Assembly (NCBI GenBank): GCA_003971905.1
Contig: RSEE01000034.1
Coordinates: forward strand, 496,001-560,000
Length of the DNA stretch: 64,000 nt
Direction: 5' to 3'
From: Moniliella sp. 'wahieum'
Taxonomy: Eukaryota
Shown here in pieces: positions 7 to 32,200 of this stretch; the first letter of the stretch is position 1; each line of letters starts with the position of its first letter. The notes beneath the pieces are model-generated. The model did no database searches, was not told the DNA's origin, and saw only the letters and a program-made list of their open reading frames with translations. The translations under genes were made by a program, and so were the position numbers.

Positions 7-3000
7 ATGATCGCTGGTCTTGGCCGTCTCCACAGCGTCCGTGGGGTTGCGACGGGTGACGCCGGGGACGGTGAAGCGATGCCCCCGCATCTCCACACTC
101 CGCCCGCCTTTTTTTGCCCCCAACACCACCACCGCCCAAGCGTCACGCCTGCGTCGGTGCTGGCTCTCGGCATGTCATTGCCGTCCTCCGCCTCCCTCAC
201 ACCGCGCAGTCCCCCTGTCCTCCCCCACAGCCCCCCGCCCGTGTCTCCCCACCTGGCTTGCTCCTCTGCCGGCATCCCAACACGCCTGCCCCCTCCCGCC
301 CGCCCCGAGCGCCACTCGCGCCCCTGTTCACCACCATCGCCCTCTTCCGCTTCGACCCAGATTGTTTCTGCCCCTGCCTCTCCCCGCCTCGACTCCCGTC
401 ATATCCTGCCCGCTCATCTGGGTAACGCCACTGAACGGGTGTCCCCACCACCACTGTTTGGTATCCCCCTTGGAAGCTCCATCACTTGCCCGCCAAGTTT
501 CGATGTGCGCCTCAATGTCCCCCAAGCCCGTTCATCATCCATGGACATCGAGCTGATGCGTACATCAGTCGAAGCTGGATCTGAGGAACGCTCGTCCATT
601 GGGGATTCCTTCCGCTCGCCAGACTTTGATAGTAGGATGCGTGGCATTAACCACCCTCCCCCTTCATTCAACATCCCCAGCGACAAAGCGTCTTCTCTTT
701 CCCGTTCCAGGTCCCTCCCTCAACATGGCCCGCTGTTGCCGATTCCTGGTCTCTTGTCAATGAGAGGGAACGTGTTGAAAGCCCAGCGGGGGGGGTGGAG
801 AGTAGTTGGGTCACCCCTGCCCTCAATTCTCAATCCTACACGGCCCTCCATGACCATGACTCGGTTCGTTTTCATCTACGCACGTTCTAGGCAGATTGCT
901 GACGTTGCTTTGCATTCGTACTAGCAGGAGTACGGTATGGATCCCTTCTACTTAACTATCGAGGCAGCAGACGCGAGCTCCTCCCTGCACTCCTGTAACT
1001 CCCGCTCTTCCAGAAAGTCCAGTCGACACTCCGAAGACTCAGAGGATGCACCGAGTGGACAACCCAGTAACGCTTTCCCCCAGTTCCCTCTTCTTCGAAA
1101 CTTGCCTCTGGATCGGTGATGCCGCCCATGGTCGCTCTCACCAGTACTGCACCATCCAGGTCGACCTCATCAGTCACCCCCCCGATGATGTCGAGTCCTC
1201 ACGCAGCGGATCCTGGTACGCAAGCACAGGTCCAGCTACAAGAGCCTGTTGTTGCATACGAAAAGCATAGTGAGGTTGCCACTGACCCTTCTCCCCCTCT
1301 CTCTGCCATTTGGCGGCCACAGGCGATGTCTCGCCTTCGTCAGGGGAGATGGGGGCGAAGGATACGCCTCGTGGTAGTCCCCATTCTCATGACTCCGAAC
1401 AGCATACTCCGCTCGAGCAATTGGGCGATCGGCAATCGGTTGTGCCACAATCAGGTGTCGTGCAGTCGGATGCTTCAACGTCTCCGTATGCGTTTTCACA
1501 GAATTCTCGTGGGGAAGGTATTCCTCCCCCTACTCACATTGTTTCCCCTGACATTTCTGTTCTCGGAAAGGGCCCTCATTTGACTGAGCCAACGCAGTCT
1601 CATAATCCCCTTTCATCAGTCAAGACGGCCGCCTTGTCACCCCTCAACTCCAACTCAAGTGTGGCTCCATCGGGAACTACCGCCTCGTATGCCAACCTCT
1701 CATCCGGAAAGTTGGCTGGCATGACTCATGGTGTTAAGCATTCCCTTTTCTCTCGTCGCCTCCACCCGTCGAAGTCAAACGCTTCGTCCCAACACGACAC
1801 AAGCACACCCAGCACATCCTCCTCTGGTAGAAAGTTTCGCTCCGGGGGTTTCTTACCTTTCCGTCGGTCAAGTGCCCATCAAACGACCACAGAGACTCCC
1901 TCCTCCCCTCCTCTCGACTCGCTTTCCCCTACTACATCAGCCTCGTCTTCACGGCGGAAATCATGGATCAAACCAGCAGATGCACTTTTGCAGTCGCGCA
2001 GGCCTTCTTCGCCCGGATCATCAAGCAGCGCACGGCACGGCCGTTTGGAAAGAAATACCCGTCCTGCGCGCCCCGCAACCTCGCCTGCTCCAGTTCACAC
2101 CGTGACGGATCCACCACAGATGGCATCAACTAGGCGTGCTTCCTTGATGGACGATACGTTACCCGATCATCGACTTCAGCTGAAGAGCAACTCTCCCGTC
2201 CATGCTGGAAGTGCTTCTACTACTCTTGCAACTTCCGCGCCCTTTGGTGGAGGAGACGGCGAGTGCGTCACCACAACTGCTTCCGAAGCGCCTAGTGGCA
2301 ATGATGGTGTTGACCATCATTCGCTTAAGCCATCCTACCTCAAGCCTCTGGAGGGGGAAACAGCAGCCAACTATCTTGGTCGGCTGTCCGCTCAAATTGG
2401 GCGATCTCGTGTCGTTTCTTTCTTATCCACTTCGAGCGAAGAGGTGTGTATCGAAGGGCTTCAGGCCGCCCTAAATTCGGATGATTTTACCGGATGGGCT
2501 ATCGACTTTGCTTTGCGCAAGTTCTTAGCTGAGAACGAGCTCCCAAAGGAGACACAGCAGATTGATCGGGTCCTTCAGGCGTTTGCCCTGCGCTACTGCG
2601 CCTGTAACCCTCATATCCTCACTCGGGACCAAGCCTACGTTATCGCCTTTTCCCTGATCATGCTGCAAACGGACCATTTCAACACCAACAACAAGTCCCG
2701 TATGGACCTTGCCAGCTACATTCGCAACACCCAAGAGACAAGCAAACTTGCTACGGAGATCTTAATTGTTGGTACACCCTCTCTTTCATCCACATATAGT
2801 TACTAACTCTCCATCTTCCAGTACCTGTACGACAACACGACCGCCTGCGAGTTTATTTTCATCAATGGTGCCCCATCTGCAAATGGCCCGCGCAAATCAG
2901 CCGATGTGCCCAAGGTGCTCGCTCCATTTACTGCGAATACGGGACAAGGAGTAAAGAAAACACCCGATCCGTACAAGCTCATCAAGCAAGGCAGGGTCCA

Positions 3001-4330
3001 TGACTTTCATGTGGCCATCGACCAGGTTTTTCTTTCTCATCTTCAGCCCTACCTTCCGCCTCAATGCAACACCATCGACGACACGGCTATGCAACGCAAG
3101 TTTGTGGACGCACCCGTGTGCGAAGTGGTTAATACCCCACAGTTGGCCACCGTTTCTGCCGTACCAATCGTATCGCAGGCCAACCTTATTTCCAGTGTGG
3201 CAACCGATCCACAAGAAATGATTGTCCAGATTCCCTTGGTCAAAATTGGTGTCTTGCAACGGAAAGAGGACCGCAGGATCCGACGCTGGGGACTCATTAT
3301 ATCGTCCTGCCAGCTTCTCTGGTTTCGGGATACGGCGTTGTGTGAGAGGTTACAAGAGCGAATCCAATCCCCGATTCAGGCCTCGGCACAAGGTTCGGGG
3401 GAGACCTGCAATGTCGTTGCACCTCCTCTCACCGCCTTTTGCCCCGACGACATTACGTCCCTGGACGATGCGATCGCAGTCCAGGCAAGAGGACAATCGC
3501 CGACTTCCTTTTACATTGACTTTGATCACTTTGGCCAGAGACGACGATTGACGTGTGAAGCTCCCTCGCAGACGGAAATGATCGACTACATCAATACCAT
3601 CAACTACAGTGCTGCCTACAAATGGGCAGGCATTAGCAATCTCAAGGCGTTCGCAGAGGAGCAACGCACTTTGCTGGAGCGTGTCACTAACTGGCCCTCG
3701 GGCGACTTGCCGTCGATCTCCTCCCTTCATCCCGTTCCTGAAGAAAGGCCACCTAAGGTTGATACGGCTTCCCCTCCTCTTTGGGCTGCCCGCTTTTACT
3801 TGGCAGTGAGCGAGTATGACGCCGAACTCCGCGCACGCTTTGAGCGGGCGAGCGAGTCGTACGACAAGACCAAAGCCACCCTCGAGGCACAAACGCTCTT
3901 GGCTCGTCAGTTGCGCATTCTTACTCCCCTGCAACCAGAGACCCGGGACCGGATCACCGTAACTGCGACAGAGCTCGGTCGCACTCTCGCCGCCACACGA
4001 CTTGAGTGGTTACAAGCTCAACTGCGCAAACGGATCCTCGAGTACGACTTGGTTCTTGCTCGCCAGGCCGGCGTGCCAGAGTGGCTGGCAGCCAATGCTT
4101 TCCTTCGGTCGAGCGAGCGCTCCTCTGGCGCCGGCACTCTGACCGACGAAGGGCCCTCAACCCCTCCCGCCCCCACGACTTTGCCCCCTCCATCGACAAG
4201 TGCGTCTTCTTCCTTTCAAACATCACGTCAGTCTGTTCCCAGCGCCAAAAGATCAGTGGAACAGACGTCCCTCCCTCCCACCAGTCCTCCGCTCAGCACC
4301 GGACCTTTATATTGCCTCCCGCCCGGCTAA
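7..4330 (+). CDS. Sec7-domain ARF guanine-nucleotide exchange factor with PH domain (Syt1-like); 5' end uncertain and may lie outside the window
   Basis: ORF 1310..2806 has Sec7 motifs IDFALRKFL-LPKETQQIDRVLQAFA-YC-CNP and AYVIAFSLIMLQTDHFN-NNK-RM. An in-frame 54-nt intron 2768-2821 (GTTGGT...CTAAC...CAG) joins EILI|YLYDN to ORF 2906..4330, which has a PH-like segment (KIGVLQRKE..RRWGLIISSCQLLWF). A probable intron starts at 864; the N-terminal part is low-complexity and frameshifted. Confidence 0.85.
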
Positions 4331-4339
4331 GGGTTGATG

Positions 4340-4406
4340 CTCACTGATCCGAGGCTCCAGGTATTCCGCGGTGATTCCGTACCCCTTCCGTGGTATTCCG
4401 TAGTAT
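4340..4406 (+). repeat. Left terminal inverted repeat
   Basis: CTCACTGATCCGAGGCTCCAGGTATTCCGCGGTGATTCCGTACCCCTTCCGTGGTATTCCGTAGTAT; matches the reverse complement of 9220-9284. Confidence 0.93.
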
Positions 4407-4429
4407 TCCGTAGTTTGGATTCCGTGGCA

Positions 4430-4745
4430 TACCGTGCCCGTTCCGTACTTCTTCCGTACCACTTCCGTACCTCTTCCGTACCTCTTCCGTACCACTTCCG
4501 TGCCCGTTCCGTACCACTTCCGTACTTCTTCCGTACCACTTCCGTACCACTTCCGTGCCCATTTCGTACCACTTCCGTACCACTTCCGTACGCGTTCCGT
4601 ACGCGTTCCGTACCCATTTCGTACCACTTCCGTGCCCATTTCGTACCACTTCCGTACCACTTCCGTACCCGTTCCATACCCGTTCCGTACCTCTTCCGTA
4701 CCTCTTCCGTACCTCTTCCGTACCTCTTCCGTGCCCGTTCCGTGT
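4430..4745 (+). repeat. Left subterminal tandem array, 11-bp unit (C/G)TTCCGT(A/G)CC(A/T/C), about 28 copies
   Basis: Directly visible periodicity, e.g. cttccgtacca/cttccgtacct/cttccgtgccc. It explains the repetitive spurious ORFs at 4307-4923. Confidence 0.92.
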
Positions 4746-5472
4746 TCATACTGTTGTATTCTATGGGATAAGTGCGCCCCTCCATCTTGAAAAAAAAGTG
4801 AGAACGAAATCCATAGACACACCACACAGGTTAGAATTTTTTTTCAACCACGGAAACACCACAGAACTCCACGGGTTACCAAGGGTTACCACGGGTTACC
4901 ACGGAATGGAAATGGCGTCCTAGGGTTACACTAGGGTTAGCTTATAAGCCTTAGGGTTAGCTTATAATGCAATGTATCGGTACAGGGTTACATTGCTCAA
5001 TACTTTGGGGGCCTATATGCGGCCCTCACTAGCCTCATTGGCAGTTGTGTTACTTTAGATCCTTTAGATATATGGGACATCTCTGTTGGGCTAATAGTGA
5101 TTGTATTACTAAGGTGTGCTACGGGAGGCAAGCAAGGCAAGGCAATACTGGTGGAGAAGATGCAATCAGGCCTCAGGCCGTTAATCAGGGAAACGCAGCG
5201 TGAAGGCGCAACAGGAAGGGGCAGAACAGGCAGAATGGGGCCGCCTCGCGCGCAAGTTCCATCCACACAGCAATCGATCGTACCGTTGCTTGATATCACA
5301 AATGGTGGCATGCTCCCTTTGACATGCTATCGGTAATTCTCACTGCGGAAGTACGGGTTAACATACCAAGCACATCAGAGGTTGATATATGATACCAACA
5401 TGCATACCATGTAAGTCAGTGCCCAAGCATGTAAGTACCCACTTGTAGGAAGAGGTTAGTACCCAAGAAGCA

Positions 5473-5586
5473 GATCAGTACTCCCAGCAGGTCAGTACCA
5501 GCAGCAGGTCAGTACCAGCAGCAGGTCAGTATACCCAGCAGGTCAGTACACCCAACAGCAGGTCAGTACACCCCAGGTCAGTACAC
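5473..5586 (+). repeat. Imperfect tandem repeat, core CAGGTCAGTA(C), about 7 copies
   Basis: cagcaggtcagtac units with variable 2-7 nt spacers. Confidence 0.85.
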
Positions 5587-6569
5587 CTAGCAAAGACAGT
5601 ACTGGGACGATTGGTTGGTCGCCAACAGGACAGCAGGCATCAGTTGTTGAGATGCCGACAGATCTTTGGTTAGCACCTTACCCCAGTTTTGGTCTTCGGT
5701 TGGTCTGCAGGAAAGTGTGGAAATATATAGTGATAGGCATGTCGGGAAGGCGGTTGTTAGGGGGAAGAGGAGACCGGTGTGGAGGGGGGGAGGGGGGGGG
5801 GGGTATATATATCATTCAACTGTGAAAGGGGCGGTAAGAGGAGGACTGATGCAACAAGAGCAAAAGCAGTGTGGTTCTGGTGGGAAGGTGCACAGACCAG
5901 TAACGCCGACGCACGGACCCCCCACAGCTCAGCATATTAGCCCTGCGCTGTGCGTGTGGGAACAGCCCCTGGCAACCTCCGCAGCATACCCACACGCCAC
6001 CGAGCTCCGAGAGCTCCTGGCGCCTCAAAGCTCTAAACGTACCATTTATTACGTCCCAACAGTCCTGCTGAGCCACCGGGTGGCCCGTGCTTTTGCCAAC
6101 GTCCCTTCAGGTCCTCCTCAAGCCGGCCTAGGAGTTCCGTTTTGTTTCCTCCCTCCTGGTTGTCCTTGGTCCGCAGTTTTGCCCCTGGTGGCGACTCGCT
6201 GTCTGAAGCTTGATGCTCCTCTGTAGGGGTTGCTGGTTGACTTAGACCACCATCACCACCACCACCATCAGTGCGATTGTATCACCCTCGAGGACCATCC
6301 AGACTCCAGGTTTCATCAAAAGTCCACCCATCCGAGGGCCGGCACATGTACGCTCCTGTGGAGTATATACTAGCCGTGTGCGATGCGGCAAAATGAGGCC
6401 CCGGGAACGTCCGCGGAGCTCCAAAGGAGTACATATCACCCTCTGGCCCTCATGATGGTCCACTCTCCACGTCTTCGCCAGGTTTTCCCCTCGGTCCTCT
6501 CCATCATCATGTCCGCCTCCTGGTCCGCCCCCTGGTCCGCCCCCTGGAGTCGTTTACTCTTCAGACCAC

Positions 6570-8153
6570 GGTAATGTACAACATCGCTGACGCTAAAGCA
6601 CAGCAAGCACATCTATGGCAAGTGTGTCCGGCGAGCGAGCGTGCCGCCCTTGCGATATTGTTGGGCGCAAGAGGCATGGGGGTGGGGTATATTGGCCAAC
6701 GACAACATATCCCTCTGAAATTTGCCCGCTGCTGGGCGACGGAAGCGATGATATTGATACCATCCATTCTCCGTTGCGCATACCCGAAGACTGGGTCAAA
6801 CTGCAGAGTACAACGCACAAGAGCTTGAAGACCATGGGTCAGTCGCAAGCCAGAATTGTTTCAAGGCAGATACAGGATGGCCGACATTACCTCAACCTGA
6901 AAGCGCCTCTCATCATCATATGTGCCCTTCCTTTCATCCTGTTGAGCCCATGCACACCACCTTTCTCAATCTGAGAAGAACGGTCTACGTGATCCAAGAT
7001 TGCCCATACATTTGGGTGCCGCCCATGTTGACCTTTTTAACGAGTTTCAGATGAAGTGTGCGTCCTCATTCCCGAAACAGTTGTGTTTCTTATACTGATT
7101 TGAATGAGCTAACCTTGAAACACAGGTCGATTAGGTTTCTTCCTTCTTCGTTTTGTAGTGGAGTGCCTCGTTCGATTGGTTCTGCTTGTAACAGCGGCAT
7201 GCGCATGTTTGAGATTGCAGTCAATATGAGTTGCATGCTTTATCCGTTCGTCAAGTTGCATTATCTGCCTCAGCAGATACTCGATCTGGTGGGAGCGTGA
7301 TGCTTAGGCTGTTTGTCAAACGGAAAATGTATGCTGCCGACGTCGAACGTCTCCGAACAACGGCCCTGCCATTTTGTCAACGGTTTCACGACTTCACTGT
7401 TCCAAACGGTCTGAACGAAGAGATCAACCACATTCGATCTCGGTGCACAACACTCTTCATTGGGCTGACAACATGTGGAGATACGGCAATTGGCAGGCGA
7501 TATGGACCGCCCCGGCAGAATGGGAACAGGGATGGTTGGGCCGCCATATCCGTTCGTTTACCAAACCGTATCCTGTCCTTGCTAACGAGGCGAGCAGGAG
7601 GAACCAGGATAACTTGGTTGGCATTCGCATGGATTCCATGCTCCCCCAAGCTATGACCACACTTTCGGTTGGGTTGAATCACAAACGAGAAGCTATTATT
7701 GATGGGCTCGATGGTGCAAGGGGGGATGCGCGTTGCTGTGCTCGTTCAACATTGACCCTACCGCCCATTTATCGATCTGGGCAGTAGCCGAGTGGGGCCA
7801 AAAATGAGAACAGGCAACGTGTTCGAGGGCAACAGGGTCAGAATGCCTCGTCCCGTCTAGGACACTGTGTGCAACTACTCACAACAAATGCAGGCATTGT
7901 ATAGCAATTGGCGCACGATGGGCACTGTTTCATGTTGATTGACTACTACATTGGGGTGGAGACCGATGAAGCGGGCTCCGAATACTACATTGTTGGTAGA
8001 ACTCATCCGATTGATGCTGAAGGTAATGCGTCTCTACCACGCGATGAACAAGGCTTTCACAGAGCGACGTTCGCATCAGTAAACAACATTGTCGTCCCAC
8101 TTGCCGACATTGGGTGGGTCATGGGACACATACCCTTGAGAAGGAAGTTCTGA
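6570..8153 (+). pseudogene. 5'-truncated, degenerate CACTA/Tnp2-family transposase fragment
   Basis: Motifs in order across frames: IADAKA..SGERACRPC..GVYWP; PVEPMHTTFLN; LPSSF..PRSI..MRMFE..LYP; LRLFVKR..VERL..FCQRF; HSISVHNTLHWADNMWRYGNWQAIW..E. Each is collinear with the corresponding motif of the transposase at 17259-20692. Confidence 0.8.
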
Positions 8154-9047
8154 GTTCGGATGCACTAGCACGAATTGCAGCGGATGACGACGTTTCTGAC
8201 GAGGAGGTTTGGATTTACCCTCACCCATTGGGTGCCGAACTTGGTGTCTGACAAAAACACTATAAGTGTTGCGTGTGCCAAGGTACATTTTATTCCCGAG
8301 GAAAAGAGAAGGGCAAAACAATATGCGTGCTGCCTTTGTTGGGTACTGTTTTGTTGGTGAAACGAAACGGAAATCAAATGGAGATCGGCATCAGAAATGC
8401 ACAGTGGAACTGGAAGCTATCAAGCACTGGGATCGATCGAAGACGAAGGCTCACGAGCAGAAGCTGTTGGCATAGGTGCAAAAGACACGCAGAAGACTGC
8501 TATTGTAGGTGTATAAGGTGCTAAGCGCTCTTAATAGCCTTGAAAGGATTGAGTGAGAGTGCTGCTGCCCTTTTGCACTCTACCATTTTTTCTCCAAGCC
8601 CAACGCCGGGCTAACGATTCTTCTTCCGAGTGTGCTCCCAAGTCGCACGCTCGCAAGTGTCAGTGTTGGCGAAGGGGGAACGGTGGCTAAGGTGGCGAAG
8701 GTTCCACGGTGGCTACGGTGGCGACCAAGCACCAGCTGGGGCTTCGCGTCGGCCCGGTGGTCTCCTTGTGGGTGATAAAAATCCTCCAGCGTGGAACGGT
8801 GGGCCGGTGGCTACGGTGGCGAGCAAGCACCAAGCACCAAGCTGGGGCGAAGCCCCAGCTGGCCGGGCCGTAGGCCCGGTGGTCTTCTAGTGAAATTTCA
8901 TTACTTGATTGCCAGGTCGAAATTTTTGCACGCTCGCAAGTGTTGCTCTTTCTCAACATTTCATTGCAGTAATGAAATTTGATTACCGATTGCCAGGTCG
9001 AGATTTTTGAGCCTGACTCCTTGAATTTCTAGCCGCCTCGCAAAACC

Positions 9048-9240
9048 CACCACGGAACACTCCGACATACCGCGACATGGCACGACATGTCGCGGACTAC
9101 CACCACATGTCGCGGAATACCACGGAACACCACAACATACCACGGAACGAAAAAAATCAAGAACCCGATGGCCACGAAATGACACGGATTCACCACGACA
9201 TACCACGACATACCACGACATACTACGGAATACCACGGAA
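9048..9240 (+). repeat. Right subterminal repeats, ~10-bp unit TACCACG(AC/GA)A
   Basis: taccacgaca and (t/c)accacggaa repeated; CCACGGAA is the reverse complement of the left-end TTCCGTGG motif. Confidence 0.85.
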
Positions 9241-9284
9241 GGGGTACGGAATTACCGGAATACCTGGAGCCTCGGCTCAGTGAG
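9220..9284 (-). repeat. Right terminal inverted repeat
   Basis: Reverse complement reads CTCACTGAGCCGAGGCTCCAGGTATTCCGGTAATTCCGTACCCCTTCCGTGGTATTCCGTAGTAT. Confidence 0.93.
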
Positions 9285-9513
9285 GTTGATGAAACGATAC
9301 GATTTGTAGTCCTCCTTTCCCTCAATTACTGTTGGCTTGTTGTTTATACATCCTTTGATTCTAGAAGCTCCCATCGGCCATTCGCTTGGACTGTGAGCCG
9401 TCTGCATCGCTTTTCCTTCTGTACTACGGAAATGAAAAACCAAGGCGATGCGAATGTGGAAAATGGGGGATGAGCCCGTGGGCGACGATCGAGGATCGAG
9501 GTGGAGGGATGGA

Positions 9514-12500
9514 TTAGAAGTACAGACTAGCGGCAAAGACAATGTCACGCCGGATCGTGTCGCGGGCCACATCCATCTTGCGATAAAGGTCTGCATCGCC
9601 ATCACGCGGGCAGCATCGCGCACCTCGCGACAGGTCTCATCGAGGGGGTGATGCAGCGAACGATGGTCCCCTCAGCTGCGTCGGTCATGGCGATGATCTG
9701 GTCAAACGGGGTGCCTTGGGCCCAGGCATAAACCACGTGAATCAGTCCCGGACGGAACTTGGCTTCGTAGTCTTCCACATTGATCTGATGCTGGGCTTGC
9801 ACCTGGCCCACCTTGTGCGCCGTTTGCATTACGAGAGCGTACCCGTCCGCAGCTTGCGAGGGAGTTCCGGCAGATCATCGTCCCTGCCATCGTAGATAAA
9901 GGGGCTGAGAAGAGCGACGGCTTCCTCGGGCGTGAAGGAAGCAAACGCATTGTCCAAAATCAGTTCAGTCAGGACCAAATTGTCCGCCGTGTTGATCTCG
10001 CACGCCACCGGCCCTTGAGCAACACACTCTCTGACACGGCATCCACAAATCGAAGCGCCTTCAGCACCTCGACTCGCTGATGGTAGTCGGGTAGCAGCTC
10101 CAAGTTCTCGTTGCTCAGGCGCAGTTCCATGTCCATCACATCGCGCTCGAGCGTACGGCGCTGCGTTACAATGCGGTAGTCGGCCTCGAAATGCTCATCA
10201 GCCGCCACCTCGCGGAACGAAGTCGAGACAAGTTGGCTCGTGTAGTCGTTCCGCTGCCCCAGCGTCTCGTTAAAGTCGAGACGACGGAGCTTGGCCCAGG
10301 ACGCCTCGGGCAAGGGCCCTTCCTGCGCCGCACTTGCTAGTGACCTCCCAATCGGGAGCAAGAGCTGGACCGTTTGGTTCAGTGCACTCTTCCGGTGCGA
10401 GGTGACCATGCTATGGGGGAAGTCGAGGGTGAAGGAGGTGACCCACACGACCGACGCCACTCGTACCTCTCTCAAGTCGTACACCCACCCAGCCATCCTC
10501 CCTCCGTAGGGCAAAGTGGGGTGGCCACAACGGGGGCATACCATGGGTCGAAGGACGATCAAACTTGCCTGCCTTGCGCTCGGGCGAAGCAGCGGCCAAA
10601 ACTAAGAGCTCATCAACCGAGATCACCTTGACCACAACAGCCAAGCTAAAGTCAAAGTGTTCGTCCCGCAAAGTACCACACGGCCCAATTGAATCGTTCG
10701 CCGGCCGGGTAATTGCTGTTCCATAGCCATCTCGACAACTCCCTCTGGGAAAGGGTCGCAGCCCGCGCGGCATCAGAAGGCCAAAAAGGCTTCTTCCCGT
10801 TCTGGATTCTCGAGGGACGGAACAGCAGCGAGACGTTGCTGCAATCCACGGAGCCTGCGCTCGTTTTCAGGTTGCAGCTTTTGAAGTGCATTCTCAGAGA
10901 AGGAGCGCTTGATCATATCCTCCACCTTGAGTGCCTCGACACGAAGCAAGTTAAGAATCATGTTGTACGTCAGGCGGAACTGGCTGATGAGCTTATCGGG
11001 GGTACCGAGAATCATGCTGTTGATGGCAGCTTGGGTGTACTGCTTGTCCGACGCATTGATGATCACCGTACCGGTTGCGTCCAAGCCACGACGACCAGCA
11101 CGGCCGGCCATCTGGGTATACTCGCCAGGGGACAAGTCACGGAAGTTGGTGCCATCGTGCTTGCGGGTAGAAGAAAAGACGACGGCACGGGCTGGCATGT
11201 TGACACCCATGGCGAATGTCTCGGTAGCAAAGAGGACCTTGACTAGGCCTCGCTGGAATAGGATCTCCACAACCTCCTTCACCAATGGAAGAAGACCGCC
11301 GTGATGCACGCCAATCCCACGGGCGAGCAAGTCCCTCATCCGGATAATCTGGGGCAAGTTCCGGTCCTGCTCCTTGAGCCGGGTCAAGGACTTTTCAATC
11401 ATTACATGTACCTCACTCTTCTCCTTGGCAGAGTTGAGGTCCGTGTTGGGCAGACTTGAAGCGTACTCCTCGCACTTTTTCTTACTAAACACAAATACCA
11501 CCGTAGGCAGCAAGTCGCGCTTGCGCAACAAGCCCACCATATGTACCCACAAGTTCTTATCCGGCCCCGAGCGACCCGAATTGGGTCCGGAGCGAGCGGG
11601 GCCACCAAACCCACCACGGGGAACTACTGCTCCGCCGCGTCCACCTCCCCGACTTCCCCTCGGCCCCCGCGGGAAGGCGGCCCGCCACGCCCTGCTTGTC
11701 CTCCACCTCGTCCGCCACGAGCGAGCTGGGCCAAGGAGGGCAAGCCAGCCGCCTCGCGTTCCTTGTCCTGCTTGCGCTTGAGCGCCTCATCAGCATCATG
11801 CAAACCCGACGGCAGCAATTTGCCCGTCGAATCAACCACCTTGAAGATCTCCTTGCCGGCAAAAAGATAATGTTCCAACGGAACTGGACGCTTCAGTGTA
11901 CTAATCACGTAAATATCCTTTTTCTTGGTCCGGCCCACCCAATCGGAAAATTCTGCAAAAAAGGTTACTACTTTGGTGGCCAAAGGGGAGACGGGGACGC
12001 ACCTCGAGTGTTGGGCACAGTGGCAGAAAGGAGGATGAGGTTAATGTGGTGAGGAGCGAGGATGATGACTTCTTCCCACACCACACCACGTTCTTGGTCG
12101 TTAACATAGTGTACCTCGTCAAAGATGATAAATTCGACATCACGAATCAGGTCCGCGCCTCGGTAGAGCATGCTGCGCAAAATTTCAGTCGTCATGATGA
12201 GGCACGGCGCCGTCTCGTTGATCTGGACATCGCCAGTAAGAATGCCGACATTGTCCGCCCCAAACGTCTTTTTGAATTCGCGGAACTTTTGGTTGGACAA
12301 GGCTTTGATCGGAGAGGTGTAGACACAGCGTGTCATGTGCTTCATGGCCAACGCAATCGCATACTCGGCCACCACCGTCTTACCTGCCGATGTGTGGGCC
12401 GCGACAAAGACCGAGTCGCCCTGCTCCAGATGGTAGACAGCTTGCTTTTGGAACACGTCCAGCTCGAATGGATATTCGTGCGCCATCTGCGGCACCAACT

Positions 12501-29216: not shown

Positions 29217-32200
29217 GGGAGCACAGTAGTCGGGTGCAAGCCCGGAGCTGCTAAAGGGGAGGGGCGCAGGCGAAGGGGCGTGCGAAGCAAGGACAGGCGG
29301 TGGCGGCTGGGCTCCGTAAGGTTGGGAGCGGTGGCGTGAATGGATCAAGCGAAAGGAGGAGCGTGGCGAGGAGGGTGCAAAGGACGTCTGCTTCGGCGGG
29401 GGGAAGCCGTACCCCAAGCCCGTCGCCCCCGACGGTGGGTCGAGATGCGACGGGGGGGTGGAGGAGACACGATGGGCAATGGGCGAGACGAGCATACTGG
29501 CTGCTGCAGGCACACAGACCCACGAGGGAGATGGTAGAAGAGATGGGAACAAACAGAGCCACCGGGGGGATCAGGTGATCCGGCAGCACTCTCTCCCAAC
29601 TCGGGCGTGCCTCGGAGAGGGGGGTGACGGTGTGTTTGCACACGCTGTGAGCCTGCACCGTCCCGTGTTTACTCAGGGTGAGGGCGTGTCACAGGCTGGT
29701 GGCGCGTTGCTCGGACGAGGCGGGACGTGACTGGTGAGGAGTGCAAGTCGGTGTGAAGGCAAGTGGCCGACGGAAGCAAGCGGTGGGAGCAGAGGCAAGA
29801 AAATCGGCCAACAGCTGGCGCAGAGCAGGGGGGCAGGAGGAGGATAGCCAGGGAGGAGCCGGCACGGGAGGAGCGCTGAGGAGCGTGTTCTGGTGCGTGG
29901 ATTTGGCGAGGGAGGGATTGATGCGGATGCTGGCGTGGTGCGGGCGGGGGTGTCGCTGGCGCAGAGGGAGTGGCTGCTTTGTGTCTGTGCTGTGCGCTGA
30001 GGCGAGGCGGGCCAGGTGATGGGGGTGATGCGGTCGCCGGTGAGGTCTCAGGGGGGCAGAGGGCACTGGGCCAGTTGAGCGATGGCGCTGATCGTTGGTT
30101 CTTGGACAGCTGAGTGCGTGAATGGGGGGCATTGGATATTGAACGTTGAGGCTGAGGAGGACGAGCACTAGCGCAGGCAGTGCACTGGCACTACGCTCCC
30201 CCGGCAGCCTCCATGGGCCTCTCGGGCGTCTTCGCATCCTGTCTGCCTCGAGGCTCCTCGGACTCGCACTCCGTACTCAGTTACTCTCGCAATCTCAATA
30301 TTCATATTCATCGATCATCGATCATCTTCCGTCGTTGCAGCCACCGCTCAGACACGCCTTGCACTGCCCCCGGCACCATCCATGCCGCTCATCGATCACC
30401 CATCCACCGTCGGTGTTCAATCCCTCCGTTCAATCTGTGCAATTCATTCGAATCGCCGTGCTAACGCTGGGCACTACTTGTGCGAATGACGTCTGGAAAG
30501 CGCTAAATACCGTCTTTTTTACCAAGTTTGTTTTGCTCGTCCTTCGCCCTCTTCAAGCTTCAAGCTTCAACGCTTCAACTCAGGAACTCAGGCAGCGATC
30601 GCACAACGCCGCTGTTGTTGCTATATCAGTCACAGTCCTTAGTCACTCGGTACTAGTGACTAGCCACGCGGCCACGAGATCACTTGTCTCGGCCACTAGG
30701 CTGTATTTAGTACGCACTGTACTCAAGCAGGACTCAGGTACTTACTCTGTAACGCATTCAGTACGTACTCAGTACACAGTACTGCGCCGCTGAGCTGGGT
30801 ATCTCCATGAGCGGTGACCAGTGACCGGTGACCATGACCTCATAGAGCGGTCCGAAGGGCGCTCTGCCTTACGTCATTTTCCTACCTGTGCCATCAACAC
30901 ATGGATCGGGAACAATCGGGGCTTGATTAATGAGTACCCAGCGCAGCTTGGCGACGCAGGCACTTCTCCAATACTTGGGCGCGGCGGTCCCGTTCCGCCG
31001 CTGTTCCGCCCCTCCTTGTTGCGCCTCCGGGCTGCCTCGCCGTGGTTGCATCCCCACCACTTCTGCCTGCCTTGCTCGCCTGCCACTGCCGCAATGCTAC
31101 GGTAGCGTCGCCAGGGACTAGGAATGCCCAACAGAGTCTGCTAGGTATGAGTAAGTTTTGCGGGCCAGGCTTAGGGATGGGCTGGCGTAGCGTGCAAGGA
31201 TATGCATTGGGCAACCCCGCACCGTCCTCGAGGCCGGAGGATCATCTGCTGGCTCTCCTGCCTCAAGCCGAGGCCTGAGCCCCTCACAGTTGAAAGAGGT
31301 CCTTTTCTTCCACGGGGGGGAGATGCCCATGTGTATGTATACTTTACCGCTGCCCCCCGGCTTTGGGCCACCAGACTCATACCCGCACCTTCTTCGATAT
31401 GCCACTACCGGCTACCATTTATTGGATGCGTTTGCCAAGTGACTAGTGACTAGTGACTAGTCGACTGTGGGTCTAGTGACTAGTGGCGATAGAGTGGCTG
31501 CCCAACCGGTCTGTCGATCCTGCCTTGGAAATGATCTGCCACGCAACCAAAACTACCATTGGCTACTCGTGCGAAGACACGGCCCAGGTTCGGGAAGACC
31601 TGCCGAGACACTCACAAACTCGCGCGTGTTCCCCTCTGACCTGCGCCTTCTCCATCTCACATCTCACCGCAGCCGAGATGGAGGTGCAAATGAATGGGAA
31701 CAACACAACGTTCCGCTTTCAGATTGTGCTCGGGACAGTAGAGAGAGCAAGAGGACGTATCCAGCATGAGCGCTGAGCTGTAACAGTGTGGACGGGCACA
31801 AGAGGTAGTGCATTTCAGGCGTTGTGTCCCACCCACCTCATTGCTCCGAATCGGCCCGACGTGCTGAACATGCTGCGGGTCTGGTTAGTGGTGGATGCGG
31901 GGAAACGGCGATGATTACATCGCTCCATGGAAACCACGGCGACCGCACCGTGCCGTTCAACCTGCCGTGGGACACGCCCGCGTTCGGTTAGCACTTTTAC
32001 CCTAGCGTTCCAGTGCCGCCCCGTGCCGATTCACAAGAACTTTGAGGGCGCAGGGGAGAGAGACACTGTGCCCCAAAGCGCCCATATATCCCTCTGACGA
32101 GCCCATCTGCCGGCAACCCGGAAAAGAGACACCCGAGTCTTGCTCCCTCCATCCTCGTCTTGATCTCAGCGGTGGTTGCCCTCGCAACGGGCATCGCACG

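What the first reader, a model, noticed from the sequence alone, without database searches (positions are those of the whole stretch)
4333..9291. CACTA-type transposon with non-canonical CTCACTG ends and a 7(-8)-bp target-site duplication
Seen: ~66-bp TIRs, and GTTGATG immediately outside both ends. GGTTGATG (8 bp) is also possible if the right end is one base shorter. Tnp2 transposase motifs lie inside. Established: CACTA/CMC-EnSpm elements usually end in CACT(A/G) and make 2-3 bp TSDs. If the ends are taken at CACTG..CAGTG (4342-9282), the flanks (CT/AG, GCT/AGG) are not duplicated. Inference: this may be a fungal CMC-related lineage with two extra terminal bases and a longer staggered cut.
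Basis: partly seen in the sequence, partly recalled or inferred. Interest (0 to 1): 0.8.

Follow-up and report, generated by a model that had tools for sequence, protein, structure and literature searches.

The report
Defective fungal transposon with 7-bp duplication
This is one decayed copy of a cut-and-paste DNA transposon with long inverted ends and a 7-base duplication of its insertion site; it may be a relative of CACTA elements with an unusually long duplication, but one copy cannot settle that.

Summary
The structure is real. A 4,945-bp element (4340-9284) has terminal inverted repeats of about 67 nt that start with CTCACTG. It carries arrays of a TTCCGT-core repeat next to both ends, and an exact GTTGATG lies immediately outside each end. 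The chance of that 7-mer match is about 8e-5.

The claimed "Tnp2 motifs" did not pass any statistical test. Pfam found nothing in any ORF of at least 35 aa. A phmmer search of 1.84 billion proteins gave only one spurious hit. Three word-based protein searches found nothing.

Two weak leads remain. A protein-language-model search placed the piece 7308-7784(+) next to fungal "DUF4218" clusters, although the tool's own checks flag this as weak. A recalled CACTA-type motif occurs once in the window, at 7446-7520.

All three + frames of the interior hold 21-23 stops, so the copy is defective. No second copy, empty site or intact transposase could be reached.

My best reading, at about 0.4, is a non-autonomous CMC/CACTA-like element with a 7(-8)-bp target-site duplication. 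That is outside the 2-5 bp reported for this clade. A defective member of a family that normally makes 7-8-bp duplications (KDZ, hAT7/hAT) is nearly as likely.

The parts
4333..4339 (.). Left copy of the flanking direct repeat GTTGATG (putative target-site duplication). It becomes 4332-4339 GGTTGATG under the 8-bp reading.
4340..4406 (+). Left terminal inverted repeat, about 67 nt, starting CTCACTG
4375..4743 (+). Left subterminal repeat array. The TTCCGT core occurs 29 times, including 27.5 tandem copies of the 11-bp unit TTCCGTACCAC at 4441-4743. These are presumed binding sites for an element-encoded protein.
4849..4909 (.). Copies of the same core in the opposite orientation (CACGGAA at 4849 and 4900; 10-bp unit CCACGGGTTA x3.6)
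5900..8153 (+). Interior without an open frame (21-23 stops in each + frame over 5900-8200). Putative decayed remnant of a CMC/Tnp2-type transposase gene; the limits are approximate and set by eye.
   Evidence: stops; weak family leads; no significant homology
6574..6653 (+). By-eye match, across a frameshift, to the CMC 'second D ... C(2)C' region (..NIADAKA.. in one frame, ..ACRPC.. in the next)
   Evidence: The motif class is named in PMC12730594. This is inference.
7431..7544 (+). H-x3-H ... D ... G ... W..P.E motif, of the kind recalled from the DUF4218 region of CACTA-type transposases. It is the only match in the window.
9052..9251 (-). Right subterminal repeats. The core reads as ACGGAA on the + strand, 6 times, so it is inverted relative to the left array.
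9219..9284 (-). Right terminal inverted repeat, about 66 nt, ending CAGTGAG
9285..9291 (.). Right copy of the flanking direct repeat GTTGATG

Best explanation
The region is one insertion of a cut-and-paste (DDE-type) TIR DNA transposon in a eukaryotic, probably fungal, chromosome. It sits 2 bp after the TAA stop codon that ends the long ORF 2807-4330, downstream of a Sec7-domain ORF. The copy is defective: its interior is a heavily decayed remnant, most likely of a CMC/CACTA-type (Tnp2-like) transposase gene. It could therefore only have moved with a transposase supplied in trans by an intact relative elsewhere. That transposase would recognise the roughly 67-nt inverted ends and the TTCCGT-core subterminal arrays, excise the element, and insert it at staggered cuts 7 nt apart (8 under the other reading). 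Repair of those cuts made the GTTGATG duplication. Shown: the TIRs, the repeat arrays, the flanking duplication, and the absence of an open frame. Inferred: the CMC affiliation, mobilisation in trans, and that 7 bp is the family's rule and not a single event.
For: TIRs and flanking 7-mer: with a chance of about 7.7e-5 for the 7-mer. Subterminal arrays in opposite orientation at the two ends, 29 versus 6 cores; tandem structure. CACTG at bases 3-7 of both ends. No open frame, 21-23 stops in each + frame over 5900-8200. No RIP-type dinucleotide bias, so the decay looks like ordinary mutation. CMC leads: the ESM-Atlas feature search of 7308-7784(+) gave top named clusters 'DUF4218 domain-containing protein' from Basidiomycota and Mucoromycota at 0.96/0.95/0.95, sharing 189/180/177 of 256 features, with PF13960 on 13% of the members of the rank-8 cluster. 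The pattern H-x3-4-H-x2-3-[DE]-x4-7-G-x4-7-W-x2-P-x-E occurs once in all six frames of the 64-kb window, at 7446-7520(+), and in 0 of 200 shuffled windows. [quoted passage not shown]
Against: No search with an E-value supports any transposase family. Pfam gave 0 relevant hits. phmmer of 6758-7297 against 1.84 billion representatives gave 1 hit, to a repetitive protein with no transposase domain. Three word-based searches and a PDB search gave 0 hits. The Atlas call carries its own warnings: recognition was 2180, below the 2300 mark, and only 5 of the ten best hits with a family agreed, which the tool reads as 'that family is probably wrong'. A second piece, 6758-7051, gave no usable hit. I recalled the motif pattern and set its tolerances after seeing the sequence, so the 0/200 figure overstates its weight. 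The stop density in the 'coding' strand is close to that of random sequence. Known CMC-clade elements make 2-5-bp duplications and mostly end in CA..TG (PMC12730594). The fungal examples CNIRT6 (CACTG ends, 3 bp) and CNEST (TA) fit that rule (bioRxiv 10.1101/2025.05.19.654958, passages). Here the duplication is 7-8 bp and the outermost bases are CT..AG. Only one copy was seen.
Confidence: 0.4

Rival explanations
1. The element is a defective or non-autonomous member of a superfamily that normally makes 7-8-bp duplications. In fungi these are KDZ (Kyakuja 7 bp; Zisupton and Dileera 8 bp, with long TIRs in Cryptococcus) and hAT/hAT7 (8 or 7 bp); MULE or P are less likely. Under this reading the CACTG near the ends and the DUF4218-like trace are coincidences.
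For: The duplication length of 7 or 8 bp matches Kyakuja (7), hAT7 (7) and Zisupton/Dileera (8) as described in PMC12730594. It also matches KDZ1-3 of Cryptococcus: 8 or 4-8 bp, with TIRs of 139-241 bp (PMC11343200; bioRxiv 10.1101/2025.05.19.654958). No significant CMC homology was found. Subterminal repeat arrays are also known in hAT elements (my recall).
Against: No Pfam hit to a KDZ, CxC, hAT or MULE family either. Kyakuja is described as having CA..TG termini and no TIRs, unlike this element. The ends do not fit the hAT terminal consensus as I recall it. The only family-level leads point to CACTA-type proteins.
Confidence: 0.33
2. The element is composite. The TIRs, repeat arrays and 7-bp duplication belong to one family, and the CACTA-like trace in the interior comes from an unrelated element that was nested in it or captured by it.
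For: The interior is far more decayed than the ends. The duplication length conflicts with the CMC-like interior.
Against: No internal pair of TIRs or internal duplication brackets the 5900-8150 region among the repeats listed. The layout of ends, arrays and one central gene-sized interior of about 4.1 kb is that of a simple single-gene element.
Confidence: 0.1
3. The element is a canonical CACTA element ending in CACTG..CAGTG with a 2-3-bp duplication that has since mutated, and the GTTGATG pair is chance or pre-existing sequence.
For: CACTG/CAGTG lie at 4342 and 9282. Fungal CACTA elements with CACTG ends and 3-bp duplications exist.
Against: The inverted repeat runs two bases beyond CACTG on both sides (CT/AG), and the 7-mers abut it exactly. 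The chance of that match is about 7.7e-5. The flanks CT/AG and GCT/AGG are not duplicated.
Confidence: 0.03

Closest known systems
CACTA/EnSpm elements of the CMC clade, e.g. CNIRT6 of Cryptococcus neoformans (bioRxiv 10.1101/2025.05.19.654958)
   Same: CACTG close to both ends. Arrays of short subterminal repeats in opposite orientation at the two ends. A central region with a weak trace of the H(3)H..E/DUF4218-type motif.
   Different: The outermost bases are CT..AG, with CACTG starting at base 3. The TIRs are about 67 nt long. The flanking duplication is 7-8 bp instead of 2-3 bp (2-5 bp for the whole clade, PMC12730594). No significant transposase homology was found, and no second (TnpA-like) gene is recognisable.
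KDZ transposons: Kyakuja, Dileera, Zisupton; KDZ1-3 of Cryptococcus
   Same: A 7-bp (Kyakuja) or 8-bp (Zisupton, Dileera, KDZ1) duplication. Long TIRs in the Cryptococcus elements. A basidiomycete-type host is plausible.
   Different: No trace of a KDZ transposase or CxC domain. Kyakuja has no TIRs. The KDZ elements described are 6-11 kb, against 4.9 kb here.
hAT / hAT7 (7-bp duplication, rust fungi; PMC12730594)
   Same: A 7- or 8-bp duplication; subterminal repeat arrays are common in hAT (my recall).
   Different: No hAT domain was detected. The TIRs are much longer than is typical, and the terminal bases do not fit the hAT consensus (my recall).
Plavaka (PlavakaA: TGT..ACA, 2 bp; PlavakaB: CATCA..TGATG, 2-3 bp; PMC12730594)
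   Same: A fungal, CMC-related transposase type. One lower-ranked Atlas cluster carried PF20722 (DUF6830) on 31% of its members.
   Different: Neither the termini nor the duplication length matches. The TGATG inside the duplicated 7-mer lies outside the inverted repeat and is direct, not inverted.

Membership tests
CACTA/EnSpm (CMC clade) | Termini 5'-CACT(A/G)...(C/T)AGTG-3' (clade-wide CA..TG) at the very ends | tested here: not met
   CACTG/CAGTG are present but begin at base 3; the inverted repeat extends two more bases (CT..AG) up to the duplicated 7-mer.
CACTA/EnSpm (CMC clade) | Target-site duplication of 2-3 bp (2-5 bp for the wider CMCT clade, PMC12730594) | tested here: not met
   The flanking direct repeat is 7 bp, or 8 bp under the other reading; no 2-5-bp duplication fits at either candidate boundary. 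One copy only.
CACTA/EnSpm (CMC clade) | Arrays of short subterminal repeats near both ends | tested here: met
   TTCCGT core x29 at 4375-4738 (+) and x6 in the inverse orientation at 9052-9246.
CACTA/EnSpm (CMC clade) | DDE transposase of the Tnp2/Transposase_21 type with C(2)C and H(3-4)H motifs | tested here: inconclusive
   No Pfam, phmmer or word-search hit. Weak leads only: Atlas 'DUF4218' clusters at 0.96, with the tool's own warnings, and one motif match, unique in the window.
KDZ (Kyakuja/Dileera/Zisupton) | 7-bp (Kyakuja) or 8-bp (Zisupton/Dileera) duplication | tested here: met
   7 or 8 bp; literature values from PMC12730594 and PMC11343200.
KDZ (Kyakuja/Dileera/Zisupton) | KDZ transposase domain with a CxC zinc-chelating domain | tested here: not met
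   No such Pfam hit in any ORF piece. The interior is decayed, so absence is weak evidence.
Kyakuja | CA..TG termini without TIRs (PMC12730594) | tested here: not met
   TIRs of about 67 nt and CT..AG outermost bases.
hAT / hAT7 | hAT transposase (dimerisation domain) and short TIRs with the hAT terminal consensus | tested here: not met
   No hAT family hit. The terminal consensus was compared from my recall only.
Plavaka | Termini TGT..ACA or CATCA..TGATG with 2-3-bp duplications (PMC12730594) | tested here: not met
   The ends are CTCACTG..CAGTGAG and the duplication is 7-8 bp.

The most novel reading that the evidence does not exclude
This copy represents a fungal lineage of CMC/CACTA-related transposons whose transposase cuts the target with a 7-nt stagger and whose ends carry two extra bases before CACTG. 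That would push the duplication range of the CMC/Transib/RAG-related clade beyond the 2-5 bp reported so far.
Probability: 0.3. Interest if true: 0.55.

Novelty: new member of a known kind. Interest (0 to 1): 0.35.

Why it matters
Duplication length is used as a near-diagnostic trait of DNA-transposon superfamilies, because it reflects the geometry of the transposase-target complex. A CMC-type enzyme making 7-nt staggered cuts would show that this geometry is more plastic in the clade that also gave rise to RAG1 than current catalogues say (2-5 bp). It would also warn against classifying fungal elements by duplication length alone. If the element instead belongs to KDZ or hAT7, it is an ordinary unannotated defective copy. 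Either way, the copy is a useful marker for finding the intact partner in the full genome.

Tried and rejected
- **Earlier findings of this scan:** nothing by place, sequence, relatives or words.
- **Sequencing runs:** only one study of food metagenomes was offered. Run X1 held 0.12 of the sampled words; X2 and X3 held next to none.
- **Laid contigs:** 12 short X1 contigs lay on 1500-12500. Four matched at 99-100% inside the element (4816-4997, 5876-6088 with a 2-base insertion, 7125-7278, 7522-7721). No joint spanned the element, and nothing at high identity lay on the flanks. This gives no information on an empty site, and I draw no conclusion from the uncovered parts.
- **Metagenome scan with the 20-nt TIR pattern:** 4 loci, all without similarity beyond the pattern, so chance matches.
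- **Genome contigs and viral contigs with a 26-nt pattern:** 0 matches each.
- **blastn/tblastx of the element against the rest of the window:** only a 65-bp, 78% match (5195-5257 vs 30973-31035) and noise.
- **Pfam on ORFs and pieces:** no relevant family.
- **phmmer of 6758-7297 (TGA read as X) against 1.84 billion representatives:** 1 hit, E = 1.5e-4, to a repetitive protein (P0001) without any transposase domain. I rejected it as spurious.
- **Word-based protein searches with 7308-7784 (longer, near) and 5651-6223 (longer):** none at E<=10.
- **Other protein searches:** PDB sequence search found none. The Atlas search of 6758-7051 gave no usable hit.
- **RNA searches:** Rfam and tRNA scans of the window found none.
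- **Text search for the terminal and repeat strings:** in papers, only unrelated primer hits among the 10 of 96 papers listed. In the one held supplement of PMC12730594, none.
- **Family search through a locus handle:** not possible.
- **Considered and rejected:** a PlavakaB reading based on TGATG inside the duplicated 7-mer (it is direct and lies outside the inverted repeat); a 9-bp duplication around CACTG ends (the two 9-mers are out of register); and RIP as the cause of the decay (indices do not differ from the flanks).
Full report
**Observation.**
The left junction reads ...GGCTAAGG GTTGATG | CTCACTGATCCGAGGCTCCAGG... and the right junction reads ...CCTGGAGCCTCGGCTCAGTGAG | GTTGATG AAACGATAC....
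- The repeat finder joined the ends as two inverted blocks: 29 nt at 97% and 49 nt at 90%.
- Alignments of the arms give 63 matches, 2 mismatches and one 2-nt gap over the first 67 nt. After that the arms dissolve into related repeat units.
- With up to 3 mismatches, the 22-nt end occurs only at 4340 (+) and 9284 (-) in the window, and in none of 100 shuffles.
- The bases just outside the arms are not complementary, so the inverted repeat ends exactly at 4340 and 9284.
- GTTGATG abuts both ends. The chance of that 7-mer match at fixed positions is about 7.7e-5.
- The G at 4332 and the G at 9284 leave an 8-bp reading open. One copy cannot decide between 7 and 8.
- With ends placed at CACTG/CAGTG, no 2- or 3-bp duplication exists.

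**Anatomy.**
- Next to the left end, the core TTCCGT occurs 29 times on the + strand between 4375 and 4738. This includes 27.5 tandem copies of the 11-bp unit TTCCGTACCAC at 4441-4743.
- The same core in reverse orientation (ACGGAA) occurs 6 times between 9052 and 9246, and twice at 4850 and 4901.
- Such asymmetric, oppositely oriented arrays are the usual binding platforms of CACTA and hAT-type elements; that statement is my recall.
- The interior (about 4920-9040) has no open frame. The longest stop-to-stop ORF is 191 aa, and each + frame holds 21-23 stops in 766-767 codons over 5900-8200.
- The dinucleotide indices are not those of RIP and resemble the flanks.
- The element has 52% G+C, against 57-60% around it.

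**Context.**
- The window is eukaryotic, with long exons. Pfam finds Sec7, Sec23/24, a proteasome activator PSME4-type HEAT region, an MTR4-like helicase and an NDH2-type oxidoreductase.
- The element lies 2 bp after the TAA (4328-4330) that closes the 507-aa ORF 2807-4330. That ORF follows a Sec7-domain ORF in the same frame.
- The window holds no second copy or fragment of the element.

**Is there a Tnp2 transposase inside?**
- No test that returns an E-value says so. Pfam found no transposase family in 27 ORFs of at least 70 aa, in 85 of the 97 ORFs of at least 35 aa (the 12 omitted lie in the terminal repeat arrays), or in 13 chosen pieces at E<=10.
- phmmer of the 180-aa reading 6758-7297 against 1.84 billion cluster representatives returned one hit (E = 1.5e-4). 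It is a repetitive protein with no transposase domain, which I reject as spurious.
- Word-based searches with 7308-7784 (longer and near lengths) and 5651-6223 returned nothing at E<=10. The PDB sequence search also returned nothing.
- Two weak leads remain.
  - The ESM-Atlas feature search of 7308-7784(+) put it next to fungal clusters automatically named 'DUF4218 domain-containing protein' (0.96, 0.95, 0.95; 189, 180, 177 shared features). PF13960 was on 13% of the members of the rank-8 cluster, and PF20722 on 31% of the rank-18 cluster.
  - The same output warns that recognition (2180) is below its 2300 mark. It also warns that only 5 of the ten best family-bearing hits agree, which it reads as 'probably wrong'. 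A second piece gave no usable hit.
  - The pattern H-x3-4-H-x2-3-[DE]-x4-7-G-x4-7-W-x2-P-x-E is what I recall from the region after the Tnp2 domain in CACTA-type transposases. It occurs once in all six frames of the window, at 7446-7520(+), and in 0 of 200 shuffles. I set its tolerances after seeing the sequence, so this figure is generous.
- By eye, a D-x-K-A...C(2)C stretch lies about 265 codons upstream across a frameshift (6574-6653). The order and spacing fit the C(2)C and H(3-4)H hallmarks that PMC12730594 names for the CMC/Transib clade.
- I read this as a probable but unproven relic, with odds of about 0.6. It needs at least three frameshifts and several stops to read through.

**What the literature says (passages read, not whole papers).**
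- Kojima 2025 (PMC12730594) gives these values:

| Lineage | Duplication | Termini |
|---|---|---|
| CMCT clade | 2-5 bp | mostly CA..TG |
| Fungal EnSpm | 3 bp | CAC..GTG |
| PlavakaA | 2 bp | TGT..ACA |
| PlavakaB | 2-3 bp | CATCA..TGATG |
| Kyakuja | 7 bp | CA..TG, no TIRs |
| Zisupton and Dileera | 8 bp | not stated in the passages read |
| hAT7 (rust fungi) | 7 bp | not stated in the passages read |

- Two Cryptococcus studies add further values (PMC11343200; bioRxiv 10.1101/2025.05.19.654958):
  - KDZ1-3 have 139-241-bp TIRs and 8-bp or 4-8-bp duplications.
  - CNIRT6 is a CACTA element with CACTG ends and a 3-bp duplication.
  - CNEST is CMC-related with CACGG ends and a TA duplication.
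- No passage I read reports a CMC-type element with a 7- or 8-bp duplication.
- I did not run a dedicated text search for such a report. My searches used 'Plavaka', CACTA/fungi/TSD/Tnp2, Zisupton/TIR/TSD, 'Lanisha', the terminal and repeat strings and Kyakuja/CACTA.
- Repbase and most subscription journals were not searchable. The figures and most supplements of these papers were not seen.

**Explanation.**
- The insertion is a genuine cut-and-paste event of a defective element that must have been mobilised in trans.
- Its family cannot be settled from this copy. The end motif, the arrays and the weak protein trace point to a CMC/CACTA-like lineage. The duplication length and the outermost bases argue against canonical membership.
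- I put about 0.4 on a CMC-like element with a 7(-8)-bp duplication. I put about 0.33 on a defective member of a family that normally makes 7-8-bp duplications (KDZ, hAT7/hAT, less likely MULE or P), about 0.1 on a composite, and about 0.03 on a canonical CACTA with a chance flank. The remainder is unassigned.

**What could not be done.**
- No genome is held for the window.
- The only sequencing runs offered were food metagenomes, whose short contigs match parts of the interior but bridge nothing.
- The collection scans found only chance matches or nothing.
They are the decisive next steps.

**Verdict.** The structural observation is sound and the element is a previously unannotated defective TIR transposon. 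The attractive reading, a CACTA relative with a long stagger, is neither excluded nor established. Interest is moderate (0.35). It would rise to about 0.55 if other copies confirm both the 7-bp rule and a CMC-type transposase.

Noticed in passing
window 5453-5592: Inside the element there is a 17-bp tandem repeat (consensus AGCAGGTCAGTACACCC, about 7 copies; also reported with a 34-bp period).
   Followed up: no
window 8732-8862 and 8888-8985: Two internal palindromic regions lie near the right end of the element (28-nt arms at 82% and 33-nt arms at 73%), beside direct repeats at 8681-8832 and 8907-9009. Their function is unknown.
   Followed up: no
window 5780-5802 and 6245-6270: There is a G-run of about 20 nt and a (CAC)n run that reads as a histidine stretch. 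Both look like slippage products in the decayed interior.
   Followed up: no
window 1286-4330: Two long ORFs in the same frame (1286-2806 with a Sec7 domain; 2807-4330 without any Pfam family) are separated by a single in-frame stop. This may be a short intron or a real gene end. The transposon lies 2 bp after the second ORF's stop codon.
   Followed up: partly
window 5195-5257 vs 30973-31035: A 65-bp stretch of the element matches a distant place in the window at 78% identity on the opposite strand. A contig of run X2 also touched 5195-5228. It may be a short shared or low-complexity motif.
   Followed up: no
window 4557 and 6028 (run X1): Contigs of a food-metagenome run match parts of the element's interior at 99-100% but differ by G>A at 4557 and a 2-base insertion after 6028. 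One contig shares only 47 nt (6070-6116) and then runs on unlike the window. This could be a strain difference or another copy; it cannot be told from short contigs.
   Followed up: partly
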